From Candidatus Nealsonbacteria bacterium CG11_big_fil_rev_8_21_14_0_20_37_68 (GTDB lineage: Bacteria; Patescibacteriota; Minisyncoccia; Minisyncoccales; GCA-002782225): a DNA stretch of 33,624 bases. A program made the position numbers and the translations under genes. Positions 5,099 to 33,480 of the stretch are shown here, piece by piece. The stretch spans positions 29,931 through 63,554 of the forward strand of contig PCWJ01000024.1 in NCBI GenBank assembly GCA_002787295.1, given 5' to 3'. Each line of letters starts with the position of its first letter. Within the stretch, counting starts at the first letter, position 1. Below the pieces are notes generated by a model. That model was not told where the DNA came from and ran no database searches. It saw only the letters and a program-made list of their open reading frames with translations.

Positions 5099-7171
5099 TT
5101 AACTCCTTTTTAATTTCTCAATTGCTTCTGATAATATCTGACAGTATAAATTTAAGCCGACTTGATTTATATTTCCTGATTGCTCTTTGCCTAAAATGTT
5201 TCCGGCGCCGCGGATTTCTAAATCCTTTAAAGCAATTTTATAGCCAGAACCCAGTTCTTCAGCTTCTTTCAAAGCATCTAATCTCATTTCGGCTTTTTCT
5301 GAAAGGTGACTGCCGTTCACCTCCACACCATAACGAGGACTAACTTCGTTAATTTTATCGCCTTCGGCGATTTGTCCTCGTTTGGTGTGGGGGTAAAGAA
5401 AGTAAGCAAAGCTCTGAATGTGAGAACGGCCAATCCTGCCTCTGATTTGATAAGCTTCAGCTAAGCCTAATCTGGTTGAGTCAGCCACGATTAAAGTATT
5501 GACATTTGGCAAATCTAAACCATTTTCAATAATAGTAGTCGCTACTAAAACATCAATTTTTCTATTTTGAAAGTCTGCCATTACTTTTACCAATTCTTTT
5601 TCTTTCAGTCTTCCATGAGCAATCCCCAATTTTACCTCTGGTCTAAAACCCGACGTTAGTCCTTCTAAAAACTTTTTGGCTGTTTCGATTGTCTCTACTC
5701 GATTGTATAAAAAATAAACCTGTCCTCCTCGAGAAATTTCAGCCCAAATTGCTTTTTTAATAACGGTTTCCGACCAGGGCAAAATAAAGGTTTTGATGGC
5801 TAATCTCCCCAGTGGGGGAGTTTGAATTAGACTTATTTCTTTCAGAGAAGATAAGGCTAAATAAAGAGTTCTGGGAATGGGAGTGGCGGATAGAGACAAG
5901 ACATCCAAAGAGGTTCTTAATTTTTTTAATTTTTCTTTTTGGTTTACTCCAAATCTCTGTTCGTCATCAATTACCAAAAGTCCTAAGTTTTTAAATTCAA
6001 CGTCAGAAGATAAAAGCCGATGGGTTCCAATTACCATGTCTATTTGCCCCCGCTTTAAATTTTGAATTATCTTTTTTTGACCCGTTTTTGGCTGCAGACG
6101 ACACAATAACTCAATTCTTATGGGGAATTGCTTTAATCTTTTTTTAAAGTTGTGATAGTGTTGATTGGCTAAAATTGTTGTTGGGCAGATCATTGCTGTC
6201 TGATAACCTGAATTTACTTTTTTAACCATGGTTCTTAGGGCAATTTCAGTCTTTCCAAATCCAACATCGCCGCAAACAATCCTATCCATAGGCTCTAACT
6301 TTTTAAGATCTTGTTCAATTTCTTTCATTGTCTGGACCTGATCCGGAGTTTCTTCAAAGAGAAAAGTGCCGGCGAGTTTGGCATCTATTTCTGAATCGGG
6401 AAAGCAGGGAGGCCTTTGGGCAATTTCTCTTTTGGCGTAAATTTCTAAAAGCTCTTTTGCTAATTTTTCAGCCTCCTCTTTTATTTTTCTTTTAGTTTTT
6501 TGCCAGAAAGGACTGCTTAATCTTGAAATTTTAGGTTCGACAAACCCAATGTAACGTGATAGTTTTCTCTCTAAGCCAAATGGAACATATAATCTATCTC
6601 CTTGGGCATACGCGATCTGGTAGTAAGATAATGTCCGATCGGACATTTTTTGATTAAGGGGTTTTTCTTTTGTAAGGCCAATAAACTTTCCCACGCCGTG
6701 GTCTAGATGGACCAAATAATCTCCGGGTTTTAATCCTTTTAAGTCAGAAAATATTTTTTGAGATTTTAATCTCTTTTTTAAAATTTCTTTAACTGTCTTT
6801 TCGTCTTTGATTTCAATGGGCAATCTTTCAATATTTTCGATTAGGTTTCCGTAAAAATCAAAACGAATTGGATAATTTAAATTAATTGGGAAAACCTCAA
6901 TTATTCCTCCCCGGCGAGAAAATTCTCCGGGCTCTGAAACCCGAATTACTTTTTCATAACCCATTTCATCCAGTTTTCTTAAAAATTGAGAAAAATTACA
7001 GCTTTGATTTTTTTCTAAAAATATGGTGTTATCCTCCCAGAAAGTTTGGGTTTTTTGGGTTTGAAGAATTTTATTTAAATTTTTTTCAAACCAAAAATTA
7101 CTTTTTTCTAAAAAGTAGGGGGTAATACTGACAATCAGAAGTTTTGTGATGATCTGATCTGACATCTCCAT
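5099..7171 (-). CDS. mfd: Transcription-repair coupling factor, shortened architecture
   Basis: 690 aa. RNAP-interaction region GDYLVHLDHGVGKFIGL, SF2 motifs GDVGFGKTEIA and DDEQRFG, and the TRG-like region. Much shorter than the ~1150-aa canonical Mfd. Carries a palindromic insert at 5321-5393. Confidence 0.88.
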   Translation of the reverse strand: MEMSDQIITKLLIVSITPYFLEKSNFWFEKNLNKILQTQKTQTFWEDNTIFLEKNQSCNFSQFLRKLDEMGYEKVIRVSEPGEFSRRGGIIEVFPINLNYPIRFDFYGNLIENIERLPIEIKDEKTVKEILKKRLKSQKIFSDLKGLKPGDYLVHLDHGVGKFIGLTKEKPLNQKMSDRTLSYYQIAYAQGDRLYVPFGLERKLSRYIGFVEPKISRLSSPFWQKTKRKIKEEAEKLAKELLEIYAKREIAQRPPCFPDSEIDAKLAGTFLFEETPDQVQTMKEIEQDLKKLEPMDRIVCGDVGFGKTEIALRTMVKKVNSGYQTAMICPTTILANQHYHNFKKRLKQFPIRIELLCRLQPKTGQKKIIQNLKRGQIDMVIGTHRLLSSDVEFKNLGLLVIDDEQRFGVNQKEKLKKLRTSLDVLSLSATPIPRTLYLALSSLKEISLIQTPPLGRLAIKTFILPWSETVIKKAIWAEISRGGQVYFLYNRVETIETAKKFLEGLTSGFRPEVKLGIAHGRLKEKELVKVMADFQNRKIDVLVATTIIENGLDLPNVNTLIVADSTRLGLAEAYQIRGRIGRSHIQSFAYFLYPHTKRGQIAEGDKINEVSPRYGVEVNGSHLSEKAEMRLDALKEAEELGSGYKIALKDLEIRGAGNILGKEQSGNINQVGLNLYCQILSEAIEKLKRS
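5321..5393 (+). repeat. Family B element inside mfd
   Basis: CCACACCATAACGAGGAC..ATCGCC-ttc-GGCGAT..GTCCTCGTTTGGTGTGG. About 17-bp inverted termini with an inner hairpin. Confidence 0.85.
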
Positions 7172-10134: not shown

Positions 10135-10157
10135 AATAATAATTAACATCCCATATC

Positions 10158-10350
10158 GGAGAGGGGTCGGGACGGGTCGCAAGAGTTCTCCGCGAAGCGG
10201 AAACTCCCGACCTAGAACCTTTCGGTTCTCCCGTGTAGGAAAACAGGGAGCGAAGCGACCGCCAGAAACCGAGGGTTTCTGGAGAGCGAGCCCGAACCGA
10301 GCACATAAGTTATGTGCTCGGGCCAGCCGAAGGCTGGGGAGGGCGAGCGA
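10158..10350. repeat. GC-rich mosaic of at least 6 hairpins (hit-rpsU spacer); candidate structured RNA or nested REP cluster
   Basis: Hairpins seen: GGTCGGGA..TCCCGACC (10165-10212), CCGC-gaa-GCGG, AGAACC-tttc-GGTTCT, CCAGAAACC-gag-GGTTTCTGG (10262-10282), GAGCACATA-agt-TATGTGCTC (10299-10319) and CCAGCC-gaa-GGCTGG (10323-10337). Confidence 0.8.
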
Positions 10351-10369
10351 TTAATTTAGCGTTACCACT

Positions 10370-10582
10370 ATGGCCATTGAAGTAAGAAAACAACTAAAAG
10401 AATCTTCTCAAGGTTTGATTCACCGCTTTTCACAAAGAGTTCAGCAAAGCGGAGTTTTGATTCGGGCCAGAGGAAATAGATTTAAAATCAAGCCAAAATC
10501 AAGACAAATGAAGAGGAAAGCTGCCTTAAGAAGAGAGAAATTAAGAAAGGAATACGAAAAACTTAAGAAACTTTCAAGATAG
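10370..10582 (+). CDS. rpsU: 30S ribosomal protein S21
   Basis: 70-aa very basic protein with an S21-like layout (..RFSQRVQQSGVL.., Arg/Lys-rich C-terminus). Confidence 0.75.
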   Translation: MAIEVRKQLKESSQGLIHRFSQRVQQSGVLIRARGNRFKIKPKSRQMKRKAALRREKLRKEYEKLKKLSR

Positions 10583-11409: not shown

Positions 11410-11840
11410 TCGAGATTAATAATCTGACGACAAATCTGGTTGATGAGAAATTTTTGAAAAAGGTTGCTGGAAAAGTTTTAGAAGAAGAATCCGCCAGCTG
11501 GCGGAAAAAAGAGGCAGAGCTATCAATTGCTTTGGTTGGACAAGGAAGGATAAGGGAGTTAAATAAGAGATATAGGGGTAAAAATCGAGCAACCGATGTT
11601 TTGGTTTTTCCGGAACTAAAAGTAGTAAAAGCCCAAGAAGTTCAGGGTTTAGGAGAAATAATAATTTGTTTTAGAGAGGTCAAAAAAAATGCCAAAAAAT
11701 ATAAATCAAGTTTTGAAAAAGAATTAGCTCGAGTTTTGATTCACGGCATTTTACATCTATTAGGATACGACCACGAAAAGTCAAAAGCTACAGCCCTTAA
11801 AATGGAAGAAAAACAAAACTATTATCTTTCAAAAATTTAA
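11406..11840 (+). CDS. ybeY: rRNA maturation endoribonuclease YbeY
   Basis: 144 aa with the metal-binding motif HGILHLLGYDH. Confidence 0.9.
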   Translation: MIEINNLTTNLVDEKFLKKVAGKVLEEESASWRKKEAELSIALVGQGRIRELNKRYRGKNRATDVLVFPELKVVKAQEVQGLGEIIICFREVKKNAKKYKSSFEKELARVLIHGILHLLGYDHEKSKATALKMEEKQNYYLSKI

Positions 11841-11841
11841 A

Positions 11842-11925
11842 TAAGAACCTGCCTCGCTCCGCCAGTCGGCGGAGCTCGGCAGAACCTTGATTCGCTAAGG
11901 TATAGACATATAATCTTGAATTATG
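11842..11925 (+). repeat. Family A module, copy 1 (ybeY-ftsA spacer)
   Basis: TAAGAACCTGCCTCGCTC..GGCAGAACCTTGATTCGCTAAGGTATAGACATATAATCTTGAATTATG. Contains the hairpin CTGCC-TC-GCTCCGCC-agtc-GGCGGAGC-TC-GGCAG and a sigma70-like promoter. Confidence 0.85.
11887..11914 (+). promoter_or_regulatory. sigma70-like promoter of ftsA-ftsZ
   Basis: TTGATT, 16-nt spacer, TATAAT. The -10 ends 8 nt before the ATG and there is no SD. Confidence 0.6.
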
Positions 11926-13188
11926 CCCAAAAGCCACATCGTTACTGGGTTAGATATTGGCACCAGTGCAATTAAAGCCCTGACTGTTTTAAAAAAGAAA
12001 GGAAGCCAAGACCTCGAAGTTTTAAGTAAAGTTTTAAAACCCAATTCCGGAATGAGAAGAGGAGTGATAGTTAAACCGGAAGAGGTTTCACGGAACATAG
12101 CTTCAGTTTTGGATCAAATTCGAACCGAATCCGGGCAAAAAATTGACGGGGTTTATGTAAACATTGGAGGGAGCCATATTTTTTTAACTTCCTCCCGGGG
12201 TTCAGTCGTGGTTTCAAGAGCCGATCAAAGCATTTCCCGAGAAGACATAGAAAGAGCGATTCAGGCTGCTAAAACTTTTTCTTTGCCCCCAAACAGAGAG
12301 ATTATTGATTTCTTTCCAAAACAATTCATCATCGATAAAGAACCCGGGATTAAAGAACCCTTAGGAATGCGGGGGGTGAGACTGGAAGTTGAAATTTTGG
12401 CCATGGGAGCTTTTTCTCCTTATTTTAAAAATTTAACTACGGCAGTATTAAGCGCCGGAACCCAGATTTTAGATATAATCTGTTCTTCAATTTCTTCAGC
12501 AAAAGCCTGTCTGACTCCTCAGCAAAAAGAATTAGGAGTAGTGCTTCTGGATATTGGAGCCGGAACCACGGATTTGGCAATATATGAAGAAGGAGCTTTA
12601 ATCCATCTGGCAGTAATTCCCATAGGTTCTGGACATATCACCAATGACATTGCCATTGGTATTAGGACAGATATGGCGACAGCCGAGAGAATAAAAAAGG
12701 AATTCGTTCACTATCTTAAGGGAAACATTTTAAAAACCAAAAAAAAGGAGAAAATTGGGTCTTCCTTAAATCCTTTAACTTTTTCTCCCAAACTTTTGCG
12801 AAAAATCATTGAAGCAAGGGTTTGTGAGATTTTTGATTTAGTCCAAAAAGAGATCAAAAAAGTTTCTTCGGTGTTATTGCCTGCCGGAATAGTAATTACC
12901 GGAGGAGGAGCAAAATTACCCAATATTGTAGAGCTAGCCAAAAAAGAATTAAAACTTCCCTGTCGAATCGGAACTCCAATCTTCCACCAAATTTTGGCAG
13001 GAAAAGAGGATTCCGGTTTTTCACCGGAACCGGCGGAGGAAGGGGAAGACCCCGTCTTTAGCACGGCTTGGGGTCTGGTTTTATCTGCAATTGAGCAAAT
13101 TGAGCAAGAGCCAGAAAAAGGTTTCCCCGATTTTAGGAAAAGGGTTATAAATAGAATAAAAAGAACGTTGGGGGTATTTATCCCCTAA
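11923..13188 (+). CDS. ftsA: Cell division protein FtsA
   Basis: 421 aa. Actin-fold motifs (GLDIGTSAIK, DIGAGTTD, ITGGGAKL) and a C-terminal amphipathic basic tail FRKRVINRIKRTLGVFIP. Confidence 0.92.
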   Translation: MPKSHIVTGLDIGTSAIKALTVLKKKGSQDLEVLSKVLKPNSGMRRGVIVKPEEVSRNIASVLDQIRTESGQKIDGVYVNIGGSHIFLTSSRGSVVVSRADQSISREDIERAIQAAKTFSLPPNREIIDFFPKQFIIDKEPGIKEPLGMRGVRLEVEILAMGAFSPYFKNLTTAVLSAGTQILDIICSSISSAKACLTPQQKELGVVLLDIGAGTTDLAIYEEGALIHLAVIPIGSGHITNDIAIGIRTDMATAERIKKEFVHYLKGNILKTKKKEKIGSSLNPLTFSPKLLRKIIEARVCEIFDLVQKEIKKVSSVLLPAGIVITGGGAKLPNIVELAKKELKLPCRIGTPIFHQILAGKEDSGFSPEPAEEGEDPVFSTAWGLVLSAIEQIEQEPEKGFPDFRKRVINRIKRTLGVFIP

Positions 13189-13231
13189 ACCTGCCTAAGT
13201 TTTTCTTTGCAAAATTTAGGTAGGTAAACAT

Positions 13232-14164
13232 ATGACTAAAATTAAAGTAATTGGCGTTGGCGGATCGGGATCTAATACCGTTTCAAGGATGACTTCTTGT
13301 AAAATCCAGGGGGTAGATTTAATTGCGGTCAATACCGATCTCCAAGATCTTAAAAAAACTAAGGCGAATTTAAAAATTCAAATCGGAAAAAACTTAACCA
13401 AAGGATTGGGAGCGGGGATGAATCCCGAAATAGGTAAAAAAGCGGTTGAAGAACAAAGCAAAAATATTGAGGAGGTTTTAAGGGGAACAGATATGGTTTT
13501 TATTACCGGAGGTTTTGGAGGAGGAACCTGTACCGGTGCTGCTCCGGTTATAGCCGAAATTGCTAAATCCCTTGGGGTTTTAACTGTTGCCATAGTAACT
13601 AAACCTTTTGGTTTTGAGGGAGTTCCCCGAATGAAAATTGCCAAGGAGGGATTGGAAAACCTAAAAAGCAAAGTTGATACGCTGGTAGTGATACCCAACG
13701 ACAAACTTCTCTCTTTGGTTGATGAAAACACTACTTTGCTTTCAGCTTTTTGGTTAGCAGATGATGTTTTAAGACAGGCAGTGCAAGGGATCTCTGATTT
13801 AATCTTAGTTCCGGGAATTATTAATATTGATTTTGCCGATGTTAAAACCATTTTGGAAAATTCGGGTCGGGCAACTTTCGGTTACGGAAAGGCAAAGGGG
13901 TCAAAAAGAATGGCAGAAGCCGTAAATTTAGCCATCAATTCTCCTTTGGTTGATTTTTCCATCCGAGGGGCTAAAGGAGTTTTGTTTAATGTTTACGGCG
14001 GGGACGATTTGAGTTTGACCGAAATTGACGAGGCAGCAAAAATTATTACCAAAAACATTGAGCCTCAAGCCAAAGTAATTTTTGGGGCAGTTAAAGATTC
14101 GAAACTAAAAAAAGGAGAAGTAAAAATAATGGTAATTGCTACTGGATTTTTAACTTCCACCTAA
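13232..14164 (+). CDS. ftsZ: Cell division GTPase FtsZ (core only, no C-terminal tail)
   Basis: 310 aa. GVGGSGSN, tubulin signature GGFGGGTCTGAAP, and NDKL. It ends right after the last core strand (MVIATGF). Confidence 0.93.
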   Translation: MTKIKVIGVGGSGSNTVSRMTSCKIQGVDLIAVNTDLQDLKKTKANLKIQIGKNLTKGLGAGMNPEIGKKAVEEQSKNIEEVLRGTDMVFITGGFGGGTCTGAAPVIAEIAKSLGVLTVAIVTKPFGFEGVPRMKIAKEGLENLKSKVDTLVVIPNDKLLSLVDENTTLLSAFWLADDVLRQAVQGISDLILVPGIINIDFADVKTILENSGRATFGYGKAKGSKRMAEAVNLAINSPLVDFSIRGAKGVLFNVYGGDDLSLTEIDEAAKIITKNIEPQAKVIFGAVKDSKLKKGEVKIMVIATGFLTST

Positions 14165-14216
14165 TTAAATTTCTACCGGTTGAGTCAAGTCATTTTAATC
14201 CTTATTTATTTTTTGC

Positions 14217-14244
14217 GGAATTGATTAGATTTAATTCCTTTTTT
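14217..14244 (+). terminator. Possible weak intrinsic terminator after ftsZ
   Basis: GGAATT-gattagattt-AATTCC followed by TTTTTT. The stem is AT-rich and short. Confidence 0.35.
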
Positions 14245-14251
14245 ATTGAAG

Positions 14252-14458
14252 TAAGAACCTGCCTCGCTCAGCTCCGGCAGAACTCCCGCACCAGAGCAAA
14301 GCCCAGCACTAGAGCAGAGCTCAGTGCTGGACAGTCCCGAAGTGAGCTTCGCTCTACTTCGGGGCACGGTGCGGGACTAATCCCGAACCGTGTCGCCGAA
14401 GGCGACTCTGGTTCGGGGCTTGATTCGCTAATGTATAAACATGTAATCTTGAATTAAG
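14252..14458 (+). repeat. Family A module, copy 2 (ftsZ-nrdD spacer), split by a nested insert
   Basis: Same 5' end (TAAGAACCTGCCTCGCTC..GGCAGAAC) and 3' end (CTTGATTCGCTAATGTATAAACATGTAATCTTGAATTAAG) as copy 1. About 135 nt of extra GC-rich hairpins lie between them. Confidence 0.85.
14284..14418 (+). repeat. Nested GC-rich hairpin cluster
   Basis: Outer stem TCCCGCACC/GGTGCGGGA (14284-14292 / 14369-14377) encloses hairpins CCAGCACT..AGTGCTGG and CCCGAAGT..ACTTCGGG. A third hairpin follows: CCCGAACC-GTGTCGCC-gaa-GGCGAC-tct-GGTTCGGG (14382-14417). Confidence 0.85.
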
Positions 14459-14501
14459 TCTCCAATCAGAAAGTTTTAGGAAATTTTTTTAGATGTAGTA
14501 T

Positions 14502-14529
14502 TTGACTGGGGATTTTCTAAGGGTAAAAT
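14502..14529 (+). promoter_or_regulatory. sigma70-like promoter of nrdDG
   Basis: TTGACT, 16-nt spacer, TAAAAT. The -10 ends 6 nt before the ATG. Confidence 0.55.
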
Positions 14530-14535
14530 AAAATA

Positions 14536-27449: not shown

Positions 27450-27457
27450 TATATAAT
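27429..27457 (+). promoter_or_regulatory. sigma70-like promoter of htrA
   Basis: TTGAAA, 17-nt spacer, TATAAT. Overlaps the 3' end of the GT2 gene. The -10 ends 10 nt before the ATG. Confidence 0.55.
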
Positions 27458-27467
27458 TTTTTAAGCT

Positions 27468-28955
27468 ATGTCAATATACGATTTGCCAAAATTTGACCCC
27501 GTTAGAAATTTTTTTAAAAAATTCAAAAAAGTAAAACTAACGGGAATTTCTAACGGGGTTGAATTACCCAAATTAAACCCTCCTAAGTTTTTTTTCAAAA
27601 AATTTGGGAGGGTAAAAGTCCCAAAACCCAGCACCAGAGCAGGGCTCGGTGCTGGACAGTCCCGAAGTGAGCTTAGCTCTAGTTCGGGGCTCGGTTCTGG
27701 ACCTTGGGGGAATAAAGCCGTTATTATTTTTTTGATAATTTTAATTTCTTTTATTTTTGGAGGCATAGGTGGAATCTTTACCGGCAGTTATTTTTATTCC
27801 CGGGTAGAAGATTACCTTAAAAAATTAAACATCCAGATTCCCCAGGTTGAAAAAGAAACAATAATCGAAAAAGAGTACGTTCCCGAGACCTCTCAAGAAG
27901 AAAAAACAATTAATGTGGTGAAAGAGGCATCCCCTTCGGTGGTAAGTATTATTATTACTAAAGACCTTCCAGTTGTTGAGCAATTCTACTATAACCCCCT
28001 TAAGGAATTTGAAGAATTTTTTGGGCCCCTTGGCCTTGAGTTTGAAGTTCCTCAGTATCAAGAAAAAGGAACCGAGAAAAAGGAAATTGGAGGAGGAACC
28101 GGTTTTATTATTTCTGAAGACGGAATGATTTTGACCAACCGCCATGTGGTCTTAGATAAAGAAGCAGATTACACTGTTTTAACCAACGAGGGTCAAAAAT
28201 ACCCGGCTAAAGTTTTAGCTCGAGACCCAATCAAAGATTTGGCTGTAATTAAGGTTGAAAGCGAAAAGAAATTTGAGCCCTTAAAATTGGGAGATTCCGA
28301 CAAACTTCAGCCGGGCCAGACCGTGATTGCGATTGGCAATGCTCTTGGAGAATTTCGAAATACGGTTTCTGCCGGCGTAGTTTCCGGGCTAAAGAGAACC
28401 GTTGCTGCTTCCGGCGGAGGCCAAACCGAAGTTTTAGAAAATGTAATTCAGACCGATGCCGCTATTAATCTAGGGAATTCCGGCGGTCCTTTGTTAAATT
28501 TACAAGGGGAGGTGATTGGAGTTAATGTAGCTGTGGCTCAGGTAGCGGAAAATATTGGTTTTGCTATTCCCATCAATGAAGCCAAAAAAGACATTGAGCA
28601 GGTTAAAACCTTGGGCAAAATTGTCTATCCCTTTTTGGGAATTTATTACATTGTGATTACCCCCGAACTTAAAGAAAAATTTAACTTGCCGGTTGATTAC
28701 GGAGCCTGGATTGGCAGAAATGAAAAAGGAGAATACACTGAAGAAGCAATTTTTTCCAATTCGGCCGCCGAGAAAATCGGTTTAAAAAGAGATGATATTA
28801 TTCTGGAGTTTGACGGCAAAAAAATTACTTCAGAAAATCCTTTAGCTAAAATTATTCTGGGATATAACCCGGGGGACAAAATTTCGTTAAAGGTTTTAAG
28901 AGACAACAAAGAGGAAATTTTTCCGGTTATTCTTGGCGAGAGAAGCGAAGATTAA
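27468..28955 (+). CDS. htrA: HtrA/DegP-type serine protease with PDZ domain
   Basis: 495 aa. Intact triad contexts (LTNRHVV, KDLAVIKV, GNSGGPL), a C-terminal PDZ domain and one TM helix. The N-terminal ~80 aa are encoded by repeats and palindromes. Confidence 0.88.
   Translation: MSIYDLPKFDPVRNFFKKFKKVKLTGISNGVELPKLNPPKFFFKKFGRVKVPKPSTRAGLGAGQSRSELSSSSGLGSGPWGNKAVIIFLIILISFIFGGIGGIFTGSYFYSRVEDYLKKLNIQIPQVEKETIIEKEYVPETSQEEKTINVVKEASPSVVSIIITKDLPVVEQFYYNPLKEFEEFFGPLGLEFEVPQYQEKGTEKKEIGGGTGFIISEDGMILTNRHVVLDKEADYTVLTNEGQKYPAKVLARDPIKDLAVIKVESEKKFEPLKLGDSDKLQPGQTVIAIGNALGEFRNTVSAGVVSGLKRTVAASGGGQTEVLENVIQTDAAINLGNSGGPLLNLQGEVIGVNVAVAQVAENIGFAIPINEAKKDIEQVKTLGKIVYPFLGIYYIVITPELKEKFNLPVDYGAWIGRNEKGEYTEEAIFSNSAAEKIGLKRDDIILEFDGKKITSENPLAKIILGYNPGDKISLKVLRDNKEEIFPVILGERSED
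27497..27558. repeat. 14-bp perfect inverted repeat in the htrA 5' coding region
   Basis: CCCCGTTAGAAATT (27497-27510) and AATTTCTAACGGGG (27545-27558), plus an extra CTAACGGG at 27537-27544. Confidence 0.85.
27625..27703 (+). repeat. Family A two-hairpin core, in-frame in htrA
   Basis: By hand alignment, 27627-27690 differs from 14302-14365 at about 5 of 64 positions. Confidence 0.85.
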
Positions 28956-32487: not shown

Positions 32488-32504
32488 CCGGGAAGTCTTC
32501 CCGG
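32488..32504. repeat. REP-like palindrome, left of the RAYT gene
   Basis: 8-bp arms CCGGGAAG/CTTCCCGG around one central t. Lies 8 nt after the stop of the upstream gene. Confidence 0.85.
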
Positions 32505-32646
32505 TAGCAGTAGGCAGCATATATCTAAATCTAATATAGAAAATAATTTTTTACTTTTGGGCTTGACAGCTCTTTTTAATTCCCCAAGATAACAACTGTT
32601 GATTATTTTTTAGAAGTTAGCTAAATTGCTAATTGAGATAGTTTCC

Positions 32647-32682
32647 GGGATGGCTCCCCGGCACGTGCCGGGGAGCCATCCC
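32647..32682. repeat. Perfect 36-bp palindrome
   Basis: GGGATGGCTCCCCGGCAC|GTGCCGGGGAGCCATCCC, ending 33 nt upstream of the RAYT ATG. Confidence 0.9.
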
Positions 32683-32714
32683 AACTCTAGAGAAGCCATC
32701 TCTGTAATAAACCT

Positions 32715-33452
32715 ATGCCAATAAAACATCCACAATTTGTTAATGGAGAAATCTATCACATTATAGTTAGGGGAATTGCCGGTCAAAAAACTTTTTTAGA
32801 CGATAAAGATCGTCTGAGATATCTTTTTAATTTGTATAAATTTAATAATAAAAATATAGTTATTCGTAATCCCTCTTACCGGGAAGCCATCCCGGTAGTC
32901 TACCGGGATGGCTTCCCGGTGCTGTTGGAGACAGAAAGGGAAAAGCCAAGAGATTTATTAATTGAACTTTTAGCCGTTTGTTTAGTGCCCAATCATATTC
33001 ATTTATTAGTTCGTCAGGCTGACGACGGCGGTGTTTCTTTATTTTTCCAAAAAATGGGCGGTTATGCCAGTTATTTTAATAAAAAATACCAAAGATTTGG
33101 TTCTTTATTTCAGCGACCATTTAAAGCTATTCATATCAAAACTAATGACCAATTATTAATTGTCACTACCTATATTCATTTAAATTTAATTGATTTAATT
33201 GAGCCAAACTGGAAAATTAAGGGTATTTCCGATCCTCAAAAGATTATGGATTTTTTAGAAACTTATCCTTGGTCAAGCTATCCTTATTATTTGGGAAAAT
33301 CAAATCTTTCTTGGCTAATTAATTCTGATTTTCTAAATAAAATTTTAAAAAGGCCCGAGGATTTTCGGAATTTTGTTAAGGCTCGGATTTTTCAGAAAAC
33401 TGAACTAAAAAATTTTTTAAAGAAGACCAAAGAAATTGAGAAGTTTTTCTGA
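32715..33452 (+). CDS. REP-associated tyrosine transposase-like protein (HUH / Y1, IS200-like fold)
   Basis: 245 aa. N-terminal YHIIVRG, HUH motif in PNHIHLLV, and a Tyr ~57 aa downstream in TTYIHLN. No TnpB partner. Flanked and interrupted by related palindromes. Confidence 0.8.
   Translation: MPIKHPQFVNGEIYHIIVRGIAGQKTFLDDKDRLRYLFNLYKFNNKNIVIRNPSYREAIPVVYRDGFPVLLETEREKPRDLLIELLAVCLVPNHIHLLVRQADDGGVSLFFQKMGGYASYFNKKYQRFGSLFQRPFKAIHIKTNDQLLIVTTYIHLNLIDLIEPNWKIKGISDPQKIMDFLETYPWSSYPYYLGKSNLSWLINSDFLNKILKRPEDFRNFVKARIFQKTELKNFLKKTKEIEKFF
32878..32920. repeat. 43-nt palindrome inside the RAYT CDS
   Basis: ACCGGGAAGCCATCCCGGTA-gtc-TACCGGGATGGCTTCCCGGT, with 20-bp perfect arms. Each arm is itself a small hairpin. 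Confidence 0.9.
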
Positions 33453-33455
33453 TAG

Positions 33456-33480
33456 TCTACCGGGAAGACTTCCCGGTAGA
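33456..33480. repeat. REP-like palindrome, right of the RAYT gene
   Basis: 12-bp perfect arms TCTACCGGGAAG/CTTCCCGGTAGA around a central a. Starts 4 nt after the RAYT stop. Confidence 0.88.

What the first reader, a model, noticed from the sequence alone, without database searches (positions are those of the whole stretch)
27625..27703. Two-hairpin GC-rich module translated inside htrA, near-identical to a spacer copy, with compensatory stem changes
27627-27690 aligns to 14302-14365 with about 5 differences in 64 nt. In hairpin 1 the stems are CCAGCACT/AGTGCTGG versus CCAGCACC/GGTGCTGG. That is a T-to-C change matched by an A-to-G change, so pairing is preserved. Two further differences fall in triloops (AGA vs AGG, TTC vs TTA) and one weakens stem 2. 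In htrA the module encodes PSTRAGLGAGQSRSELSSSSGLGSG, between the start and the TM helix. The spacer copy is open in the same frame (PSTRAELSAGQSRSELRSTSGHGAG in track ORF 14221-14457). This suggests the element avoids stop codons in that frame, as in-frame colonisers do.
Basis: seen in the sequence. Interest (0 to 1): 0.8.

Follow-up and report, generated by a model that had tools for sequence, protein, structure and literature searches.

The report
In-frame hairpin repeat inside htrA
A 63-base GC-rich double-hairpin repeat, one of a family of small palindromic elements that look mobile in a Candidatus Nealsonbacteria (CPR) genome, sits in frame in the htrA protease gene and is most likely translated as a floppy linker, as Rickettsia palindromic elements are; I found no report of this in these ultra-small bacteria.

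Summary
27627-27689 (htrA) and 14302-14364 (ftsZ-nrdD spacer) are two copies of a 63-nt, 21-codon unit made of two hairpins. They differ at 5 of 64 bases, including one compensatory C-G/T-A stem change.

The unit belongs to a nested family of GC-rich hairpin repeats found in about 13 genomic contexts in related metagenome contigs. Six are intergenic, always between a post-stop hairpin and a conserved promoter-like 38-mer. Seven are inside unrelated genes (HtrA, UvrC, 5'-3' exonuclease, TsaE, YbeY, PCMT, an ABC/YebC chimera). All genic copies are sense-oriented and in codon phase 0. All six whose ends could be defined are a multiple of 3 long.

One locus shows a precise 63-nt presence/absence polymorphism. 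The window's own ybeY is an empty site, with no target duplication.

ATG 27468 is the real htrA start: the MSIYDLPKF motif it encodes is conserved across homologues. So the module is very probably translated, as a Gly/Ser/Ala/Arg-rich segment of the cytoplasmic tail.

A RAYT-like Y1 transposase gene flanked by REP-like hairpins lies 5 kb downstream. It is a candidate mobiliser; the link is unproven.

Best reading: an RPE-like / REP-like selfish element, a new member of a known kind, not described for CPR bacteria.

The parts
27627..27689 (+). 63-nt (21-codon) two-hairpin unit inside htrA, codons P54-G74. Hairpin 1 is 27628-27655, the ACAGT linker is 27656-27660, hairpin 2 is 27661-27688.
   Evidence: The same unit is the precise indel between L022 and L023.
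27690..27702 (+). 3' half (CTCGGTTCTGGAC) of the outer, host hairpin that encloses the 63-nt unit in all full copies. In htrA the 5' half is reduced to about GTCCCAAAA (27618-26) and hairpin 3 is missing, so the htrA copy is a decayed composite (inference).
   Evidence: Alignment of four copies; element table.
27468..28955 (+). htrA (Trypsin_2 + PDZ), 495 aa. The real start is ATG 27468. The TM helix follows the module.
14284..14418 (+). 135-nt intergenic composite: outer 5' arm 14284-14301, 63-nt unit 14302-14364, outer 3' arm 14365-14377, TAAT, hairpin 3a 14382-14418.
14254..14283 (+). 'Hairpin A' (AAGAACCTGCC...GGCAGAAC), which precedes every intergenic copy.
14419..14456 (+). Conserved promoter-like 38-mer (CTTGATTCGCTAATGTATAAACATGTAATCTTGAATTA) that follows every complete intergenic copy.
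   Evidence: family D14.
11843..11923 (+). The same hairpin A + promoter-like cassette without any module. L021 carries an identical hairpin A and a near-identical cassette, at a different locus, with a 127-nt element inserted at the hairpin A/promoter junction.
11775..11786 (+). Empty insertion site in the window's ybeY (GAAAAG^TCAAAA). The syntenic relative L041 has the 66-nt base element exactly here, with no target-site duplication.
27497..27558 (+). Second, unrelated in-frame palindrome in the htrA tail (CCCCGTTAGAAATT...AATTTCTAACGGGG; peptide PVRNFF...ISNGV).
27577..27613 (+). Third in-frame hairpin in the htrA tail (ACCCTCCTAAGTTTT...AAATTTGGGAGGGT), related to the intergenic 13186-13228.
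   Evidence: family D13.
32715..33452 (+). Y1 (HUH) transposase of the IS200/RAYT type. Candidate mobiliser of hairpin repeats in this genome; a link to the GC module is not shown.
   Evidence: Pfam PF01797 at 29.9 bits against a cutoff of 23. NCBIfam REP_Tyr_transpos at 27 bits, below its cutoff of 80. NHIHLLV and YIHLN motifs are visible in the translation.
32488..32507 (.). REP-like hairpin CCGGGAAGTCTTCCCGG+TAG upstream of the transposase gene.
33453..33479 (.). REP-like hairpin TAGTCTA+CCGGGAAGACTTCCCGG+TAG immediately after the transposase stop codon.
   Evidence: families D17 and I2.

Best explanation
The module is a copy of a small, non-coding, GC-rich palindromic repeat, of the REP / MITE-like 'selfish DNA' type, that has proliferated in an AT-rich Candidatus Nealsonbacteria genome.

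The family is modular and nested. A base element of 66-72 nt consists of a hairpin-1-type stem-loop plus a second CCCG...CGGGG hairpin. A 63-nt two-hairpin unit is inserted into the loop of the first hairpin of that base element. The unit's hairpin 2 has the same architecture as hairpin 1 but in inverted orientation.

Copies land after AAR without duplicating the target. In intergenic DNA they accumulate between a post-stop hairpin and a promoter-like box. In genes, only copies that are sense-oriented, in codon phase 0, 3n long and located in tolerant loops or tails survive.

In htrA a decayed composite lies in the cytoplasmic N-terminal tail between the conserved MSIYDLPKF... start and the TM anchor. 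It is translated as a Gly/Ser/Ala/Arg-rich, probably disordered and near-neutral linker.

What is shown: repeat family membership, in-frame occurrence in seven genes, empty sites, a 63-nt insertion/deletion polymorphism, stem covariation, and the conserved start.

What is inferred: actual translation; neutrality; and mobilisation on single-stranded DNA by a hairpin-recognising HUH/Y1 (RAYT / IS200-like) transposase such as the one encoded at 32715-33452.
For: Family and contexts. A metagenome scan with the 22-mer found 21 loci, which reduce to 6 intergenic and 2 genic contexts. At least 7 contigs end inside the element, as expected for a multicopy repeat.

Genic copies. Protein searches found the module in frame in UvrC (P0135), 5'-3' exonuclease (P0136), TsaE (P0139), YbeY (P0141), PCMT (P0138) and an ABC/YebC product (P0143). 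The DNA shows that every genic copy starts at a codon boundary. Outside htrA, whose decayed copy has undefined outer ends, each is 66 or 129 nt long. In the composite only frame 0 is stop-free. An intergenic variant of 127 nt is not 3n and carries a stop in that frame, which points to a selection filter.

Empty sites. The window ybeY has GAAAAG^TCAAAA where L041 has the 66-nt element. The TsaE of L015 lacks it. More than 100 HtrA homologues lack it. The exonuclease has 52 residues where solved homologues have 5.

Mobility. L022 and L023 have identical flanks and differ by a precise 63-nt indel.

Target preference. AAR lies immediately 5' of the element at 6 of 9 independent sites, against 9% expected (p about 3e-5).

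Structure. 99.3% of cells are paired and 3 of 12 pairs covary.

Relaxed protein constraint. 3 of the 8 variable residues among 10 htrA population variants fall in the 26-residue module.

Candidate enzyme. A Y1_Tnp gene flanked by REP-like hairpins lies in the same window.
Against: There is no expression, ribosome-profiling or proteomic evidence that the htrA module is translated.

Four of the seven genic hosts were found with a peptide profile in one frame, so the 'always the same frame' result is partly ascertainment. Only htrA, uvrC and the exonuclease came from frame-blind DNA matching.

The RAYT-like gene is flanked by a different hairpin family (CCGGGAAG...). It shares with the module only a TAGTC motif next to a hairpin foot, so its role in moving the module is unproven. 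No RAYT was seen in the other loci.

The 63-nt polymorphism could be a precise deletion rather than an insertion.

Compensatory stem changes in quasi-palindromes can arise from template-switch mutation without selection.

The copy number per genome is unknown. The genome-contig scan gave only chance hits in GC-rich genomes.
Confidence: 0.72

Rival explanations
1. The module is a functional structured RNA on the sense strand, such as an mRNA-stabilising or processing element or a cis-regulator of htrA translation. On this reading its presence in coding regions is secondary to an RNA role.
For: All roughly 13 copies are co-oriented with the flanking or host genes. All three one-sided stem changes are G.U on the sense strand and would be A.C on the other strand. 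Stems covary. The predicted folds are very stable.
Against: There is no Rfam match at gathering thresholds and only generic sub-threshold hairpin hits. Intergenic copies lie upstream of the promoter-like box, not in the 5' UTR of the downstream gene. The hosts are unrelated housekeeping genes, hit at protein-tolerant loops. The element is present or absent between strains and orthologues. The hairpins lack a U-tract and lie 160-220 nt after the start codon, which is too far and too stable for a thermosensor. Orientation bias is equally expected for strand-specific ssDNA transposition.
Confidence: 0.15
2. The module is not translated. htrA really starts downstream (for example at TTG 27739), and 27450-27738 is an ordinary hairpin-rich spacer like 14165-14535.
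For: The region resembles the intergenic spacers in composition and hairpin content. It is also open on the minus strand. An in-frame TTG exists inside the TM segment.
Against: The MSIYDLPKF... N-terminal motif encoded from 27468 is conserved in 90 of 120 homologues. The frame is kept through three separate palindromic inserts and in all 10 full-length population variants. A TATAAT box lies 10 nt upstream of ATG 27468. Starting at 27739 would remove the positively charged tail and part of the TM helix. The same element is unambiguously internal to conserved domains in other genes.
Confidence: 0.05
3. The two window copies are related by local gene conversion or duplication only, or by chance, with no mobile family behind them.
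For: Only two copies exist in the 33.6-kb window.
Against: About 13 distinct contexts exist elsewhere, with unrelated flanks. There is a precise indel polymorphism and there are empty sites. Shuffles give 0 matches.
Confidence: 0.02

Closest known systems
Rickettsia palindromic elements (RPE; Ogata et al. 2000; reviewed in PMC10969869)
   Same: Both are short palindromic repeats in a reduced, AT-rich genome. Both occur in intergenic DNA and inserted in frame in many unrelated housekeeping genes. Both are read in one conserved frame as an extra peptide at positions compatible with the fold. Neither encodes a transposase.
   Different: There is no sequence relationship, and the host is a different phylum (CPR/Patescibacteria). 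The units are much shorter (63/66/129 nt, against about 100-150 nt). The family is modular and nested, with element-in-hairpin-loop insertions. It is strongly GC-rich against the genome, and a within-population 63-nt presence/absence variant is seen.
REP / BIME / REPIN elements with RAYT (REP-associated tyrosine transposases)
   Same: Both consist of imperfect GC-rich hairpins of about 28 nt with a conserved stem, arranged as pairs in opposite orientation: hairpin 2 is an inverted hairpin-1-type unit. Both cluster after stop codons. A Y1/RAYT-like gene flanked by REP-like hairpins is present in the same window. Insertion occurs without target duplication.
   Different: Classic REPs are extragenic by definition, whereas here 7 of about 13 contexts are in frame inside genes. 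The RAYT-like gene is flanked by a different hairpin sequence family. A copy number of hundreds per genome has not been shown. The protein scores below the NCBIfam RAYT cutoff.
Mobile GC clusters and 'byp' elements of yeast mitochondrial genomes (from my own knowledge)
   Same: Both are GC-rich hairpin elements spreading in a very AT-rich genome, including into protein-coding genes.
   Different: Byps are skipped by translational bypassing and need matched take-off and landing codons. Here the elements are 3n long and stop-free, and no matching flanking codons are seen, so plain translation suffices.
IS200/IS605-derived palindrome-associated transposable elements (PATEs)
   Same: Both have a hairpin at each end, show no target-site duplication, insert next to a short specific sequence (here AAR), and show a strand or orientation bias.
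   Different: No cognate TnpA has been shown to act on the module. The cleavage and guide sequences have not been identified.
Pneumococcal BOX elements
   Same: Both have a modular build (here hairpin A, then variable hairpin modules, then a conserved terminal box) and lie in intergenic regions next to promoters.
   Different: There is no sequence similarity, and BOX elements are not known as systematic in-frame colonisers.

Membership tests
RPE-like in-frame palindromic repeats (behavioural class) | A repeated palindromic sequence present at many unrelated loci | tested here: met
   About 13 contexts with unrelated flanks.
RPE-like in-frame palindromic repeats (behavioural class) | Inserted in frame in several unrelated protein-coding genes and read in one conserved frame | tested here: met
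   HtrA, UvrC, exonuclease, TsaE, YbeY, PCMT and ABC/YebC all carry it in phase 0 and in sense orientation. Four of the seven were found with a frame-specific profile.
RPE-like in-frame palindromic repeats (behavioural class) | Insertion points compatible with the protein fold (loops or termini), with orthologues that lack the insert | tested here: met
   Exonuclease: 52 residues against 5 in PDB homologues. YbeY: empty site in the window. TsaE: empty in L015. HtrA: the tail precedes the TM helix.
RPE-like in-frame palindromic repeats (behavioural class) | The inserted peptide is actually expressed | not testable with these tools
   No transcriptome or proteome data were available.
Rickettsia RPE families proper (sequence homology) | Sequence similarity to RPE-1 to RPE-10 | not tested
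   No RPE sequences were at hand. The organism is a Nealsonbacterium, so homology is not expected.
REP / REPIN-RAYT system | Short imperfect palindromes with a conserved stem, often as inverted doublets | tested here: met
   28-nt hairpins. Hairpin 1 (+) and hairpin 2 (-) share the 7-bp stem / TAGAGC / loop / GCTC-A architecture.
REP / REPIN-RAYT system | Extragenic location | tested here: not met
   7 of about 13 contexts are inside coding sequences.
REP / REPIN-RAYT system | A cognate RAYT gene flanked by the same REP | tested here: inconclusive
   A Y1_Tnp gene lies at 32715-33452, but it is flanked by a different hairpin family. The NCBIfam RAYT score of 27 is below the cutoff of 80.
REP / REPIN-RAYT system | Tens to hundreds of copies per genome | not testable with these tools
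   No complete genome of this organism could be retrieved; the genome-contig scan gave only chance hits.
MITE (classical, DDE-transposase-derived) | Terminal inverted repeats plus a target-site duplication | tested here: not met
   The 66-nt element has 9-nt TIR-like ends (CCCAGCACC / GGTGCGGGG). No duplication is present at the ybeY filled/empty pair or at the L022/L023 pair.
Known structured RNA family (Rfam) | A match at the gathering threshold | tested here: not met

The most novel reading that the evidence does not exclude
The family may be specialised for life inside genes. On this reading its units are built as whole numbers of codons (63, 66, 129 nt) and carry one benign reading frame (PSTRAxLGAG...). 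They are inserted by a strand-specific, hairpin-recognising Y1/RAYT-type enzyme right after AAR, which in this genome is mostly an in-phase lysine codon. In-frame colonisation, and nested insertion into the loop of its own hairpin, would then be a property of the mechanism rather than only of selection. Such an element would be a natural 'linker-insertion' mutagen shaping proteins in ultra-small CPR genomes, and it might double as a sense-strand RNA hairpin.
Probability: 0.2. Interest if true: 0.78.

Novelty: new member of a known kind. Interest (0 to 1): 0.6.

Why it matters
CPR/Patescibacteria genomes are regarded as streamlined and poor in repeats. Here a Nealsonbacterium carries several families of palindromic repeats that sit both between genes and, in frame, inside essential genes: htrA, uvrC, ybeY, tsaE, a 5'-3' exonuclease and an ftsZ-like gene. 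The htrA tail alone holds three such inserts.

This extends the 'selfish DNA in protein-coding genes' phenomenon, known mainly from Rickettsia, to a second lineage with a reduced genome.

It also offers unusually clean material for working out the insertion mechanism: 63/66-nt units, filled and empty sites, a segregating indel, a target preference, and a RAYT-like gene nearby.

Practically, it warns annotators that odd low-complexity segments and 'long' N-termini in CPR proteins may be repeat insertions. It also warns that these repeats break assemblies and can create chimeric ORFs.

Tried and rejected
1. The genome-contig scan with a gapped pattern gave 14 hits, all chance matches in GC-rich genomes.

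2. A protein search with a six-frame concatenate joined by poly-G linkers yielded only two hits, and it missed even HtrA itself. The candidate list was probably swamped by low-complexity words. The absence of hits in the other frames is therefore not informative.

3. A word-indexed profile search with the peptide alignment collected only 83 candidates and gave 2 weak hits. The exhaustive HMMER search was needed.

4. Rfam at gathering and at E-value thresholds gave nothing meaningful.

5. A search of the phage collection gave no match.

6. Literature searches for palindromic, MITE or REP elements in CPR/Parcubacteria found nothing relevant.

7. A tblastn of the RAYT-like protein against all fetched loci found no second copy.

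8. I considered translational bypassing and rejected it. The elements are 3n long and stop-free, and there are no matched take-off and landing codons.

9. I considered an RNA thermometer for htrA and rejected it. The hairpins are too stable and lie far downstream of the start codon.

10. I considered integron attC-like sites and rejected them. No RYYYAAC/GTTRRRY cores are present.
Full report
**1. Observation**

The sequence at 27622-27702 is a direct repeat of 14297-14377 (81 nt, 89% identity). Neither the shared 26-mer nor the hairpin-1 pattern occurs once in shuffled windows.

Hairpin 1 is CCAGCACC-A-GAGC-AGG-GCTC-GGTGCTGG in htrA and CCAGCACT-A-GAGC-AGA-GCTC-AGTGCTGG in the spacer, a true C-G/T-A compensatory pair. 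Two differences are in triloops and one weakens stem 2.

The module is codons 54-78 of ORF 27468-28955. The spacer copy is open in the same frame. Both neighbourhoods fold far better than shuffles (z = -7.9 and -8.3).

The two-hairpin stretch alone is open in 4 of 6 frames, and the whole htrA leader is also open on the minus strand, a mirror effect of palindromes. Openness alone therefore proves little.

**2. Organism and the htrA start**

The HtrA protein is identical to proteins from Candidatus Nealsonbacteria MAGs. The window is about 37% G+C.

Among 120 homologues, mostly 420-450 aa, 90 carry a Y-x-L-P-K-type motif within the first 16 residues. A typical example is MSIYELPKFELPKLKAPRFWQNK followed by the TM helix. 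The window protein reads:

MSIYDLPKFD-[PVRNFFKKFKKVKLTGISNGV]-ELPKLNPPKF-[FFKKFGRVKVPK-PSTRAGLGAGQSRSELSSSSGLGSGP]-WGNK-TM

ATG 27468 is therefore the conserved start. It is preceded by TATAAT 10 nt upstream and has no Shine-Dalgarno sequence. The tail has been expanded by insertions. All 10 full-length population variants keep the frame.

**3. The module belongs to a repeat family that also lives inside other genes**

A six-frame protein query found the module in frame in a UvrC fragment and in a 5'-3' exonuclease. Their DNA copies are 92-95% identical to the window copies.

A metagenome scan with the invariant 22-mer returned 21 loci. None shares genes with the window. They collapse to six intergenic contexts plus uvrC and the exonuclease. 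At least seven contigs end inside the element, as multicopy repeats do.

An exhaustive profile search of 1.84 billion representatives added TsaE, YbeY, PCMT and an ABC/YebC product, plus two tiny ORFs. Their DNA was fetched.

**4. Anatomy**

The base element is 66 nt, 22 codons: CCC AGC ACC AGA GCR RAG CTC GGT GCT GGA CTA GTC CCG CAC CGA AAS GAA GTT TCT GGT GCG GGG. It encodes PSTRA[K/E]LGAGLVPHRNEVSGAG. It consists of two hairpins with near-identical 8-bp stems, which gives it 9-nt inverted termini.

The 129-135-nt composite is this base element, or a variant with a different second hairpin, with the 63-nt unit inserted after ...GCR AAG in the loop of its first hairpin. The 63-nt unit itself is hairpin 1 + ACAGT + hairpin 2. 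Read on the opposite strand, hairpin 2 has the same architecture as hairpin 1 (7-bp stem, TAGAGC, loop, GCTC, A, stem). The unit is therefore an inverted doublet, as in BIME/REPIN arrangements.

A further hairpin-in-hairpin nesting occurs in L020.

The htrA copy keeps the 63-nt unit (27627-27689) and the outer 3' arm (27690-27702). It has lost most of the outer 5' arm and the third hairpin, so it is a decayed composite (inference).

**5. Evidence for mobility**

- L022 and L023 are the same locus with 100% identical flanks, including the start of the downstream gene. They differ by exactly the 63-nt unit, with at most 2 nt of boundary ambiguity.
- L041 is syntenic with the window (S26 peptidase, HisRS, YbeY, FtsA, FtsZ, NrdD). 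Its ybeY has the 66-nt element between GAAAAG and TCAAAT. The window ybeY reads GAAAAG^TCAAAA at 11775-11786, with no target duplication.
- TsaE in L015 lacks the 43-residue insert that P0139 carries.
- The window cassette at 11843-11923 (hairpin A + promoter-like 38-mer) has no module. L021, a different locus, carries an identical hairpin A and a near-identical cassette with a 127-nt element at the junction.
- The base immediately 5' of the element is AAR at 6 of 9 independent sites, against 9% expected (p about 3e-5).

**6. In-frame behaviour**

Every genic copy is in sense orientation and starts at codon position 1. Every genic copy outside htrA, whose outer ends are undefined, is 66 or 129 nt long. 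In the composite only that frame is free of stops. The 127-nt intergenic variant is not 3n and has a stop in it. This fits a selection filter acting on insertions.

The exonuclease has 52 residues where solved homologues have 5, between two conserved blocks. In YbeY the insert follows the GYDHE motif. In HtrA it lies in the cytoplasmic tail.

Three of the eight variable residues among the htrA population variants fall in the 26-residue module, which indicates relaxed constraint on the peptide.

One caveat applies. Four hosts were found with a frame-specific profile, so the uniformity of frame is free of that bias only for htrA, uvrC and the exonuclease.

**7. Structure conservation**

Twelve distinct hairpin-1-type sequences give 99.3% paired cells. 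Three of 12 pairs change on both sides (A-U/C-G, C-G/A-U, C-G/U-A), and 0 of 500 shuffles reach the covariation score.

The three one-sided changes are all G.U on the sense strand. This weakly suggests that the sense strand, as RNA or as single-stranded DNA, is the one that folds. TsaE carries a variant unit whose stems differ by further compensatory changes.

Template-switch correction of quasi-palindromes could produce such changes without selection, so this is not proof of function.

**8. Candidate mobiliser**

ORF 32715-33452 is a Y1/HUH transposase. It matches Pfam PF01797 at 29.9 bits against a cutoff of 23, shows the NHIHLLV and YIHLN motifs, and gives a weak hit to NCBIfam REP-associated tyrosine transposase.

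It is flanked by REP-like hairpins CCGGGAAGWCTTCCCGG+TAG at 32488-32507 and 33453-33479. An inverted doublet of the same repeat sits in frame inside it at 32879-32919.

These REPs are a different sequence family from the module. They share only a TAGTC motif next to a hairpin foot. The lack of target duplication, the short target preference and the constant orientation are what a strand-specific ssDNA (IS200/RAYT-type) mechanism would give (from established knowledge of IS200/IS605). The link is an inference.

**9. Comparison and verdict**

There is no Rfam family, no phage match, and no literature on such elements in CPR bacteria in the library searched.

The behaviour matches Rickettsia palindromic elements, which insert in frame in many unrelated genes (review PMC10969869). 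The hairpin-doublet design and the neighbouring RAYT match REP/REPIN systems. The module fails the 'extragenic' criterion of REPs and the target-duplication criterion of classical MITEs.

I file it as a new member of the known kind 'in-frame palindromic selfish repeats', in a phylum where I found none reported.

Noticed in passing
window 27497-27558; also L015 about 10464-10521 (intergenic), L024 about 5674-5734 (start of a gene), L045 end: A second palindromic family (CCCCGTTAGAAATT...AATTTCTAACGGGG with a variable AT-rich core) is translated in htrA as PVRNFF...ISNGV. The same peptide occurs in many other Parcubacteria HtrA homologues at two different positions: after PKF[D/E] in P0002, P0007, P0062, P0088 and P0113, and after ELPKL in P0031, P0042 and P0069. 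This points to independent in-frame insertions.
   Followed up: partly
window 27577-27613 and 13186-13228; L026 about 1769-1803: A third hairpin family (ACCTNCCYAAGTTTT...AAAAYTTRGGNAGGT) lies in frame in the htrA tail, in the ftsA-ftsZ spacer of the window, and in frame in the C-terminal linker of a 635-aa FtsZ-like gene.
   Followed up: partly
window 32715-33452, with 32488-32507, 32879-32919, 33453-33479 and the long perfect hairpin at about 32645-32684: A RAYT-like Y1 transposase gene is flanked by REP-like hairpins. An inverted REP doublet is inserted in frame in its own coding sequence, where the Pfam match is interrupted (residues about 45-73).
   Followed up: partly
window 11886-11923 and 14419-14456; L020, L022, L023, L024, L026, L030: A nearly invariant 38-mer (TTGATT, then 16-17 nt, then TATAAT, then CTTGAATTA, often running straight into ATG, which suggests leaderless mRNAs) forms a 68-nt unit with hairpin A. 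That unit occurs singly or as 2-3 tandem copies upstream of many genes. In L035 it is followed directly by a terminator and no gene, so the cassette itself looks like a repeat.
   Followed up: partly
window 10144-10362: A 219-nt array of at least five GC-rich hairpins (58% G+C, -95 kcal/mol) lies just upstream of the S21 (rpsU) gene. It has no Rfam match. Several stems share the CCCGAAC / GAGC motifs of the module family.
   Followed up: no
L041/L042 7734-9803, compared with window 13232-14164: FtsZ of the syntenic relative carries an intein (Intein_splicing + LAGLIDADG; 689 aa). The window FtsZ (310 aa) has none.
   Followed up: no
L045 270-938 (P0143): This ORF joins an ABC-ATPase N-terminus to a YebC-like C-terminus exactly across the 66-nt element. 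It is either a repeat-mediated misassembly or a real fusion created by the repeat.
   Followed up: no
L026, L028, L030 and L040: C-terminal linker of the FtsZ-like gene (L030 203-2110, minus strand): GC-rich in-frame repeats (GRGVSLGRGVSL..., RESASRPD...) differ in copy number between contigs from different samples. A decayed SRAKLGTG remnant of the hairpin-1 peptide is present.
   Followed up: no
window 27461-27766, minus strand: This 101-aa antisense ORF over the htrA leader is a by-product of the stacked palindromes and is not a gene.
   Followed up: yes
P0127 and P0134 (one 64-kb contig): One population variant has htrA split into 182-aa and 276-aa ORFs. The break is well downstream of the module, so it is a frameshift or a sequencing error.
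   Followed up: no
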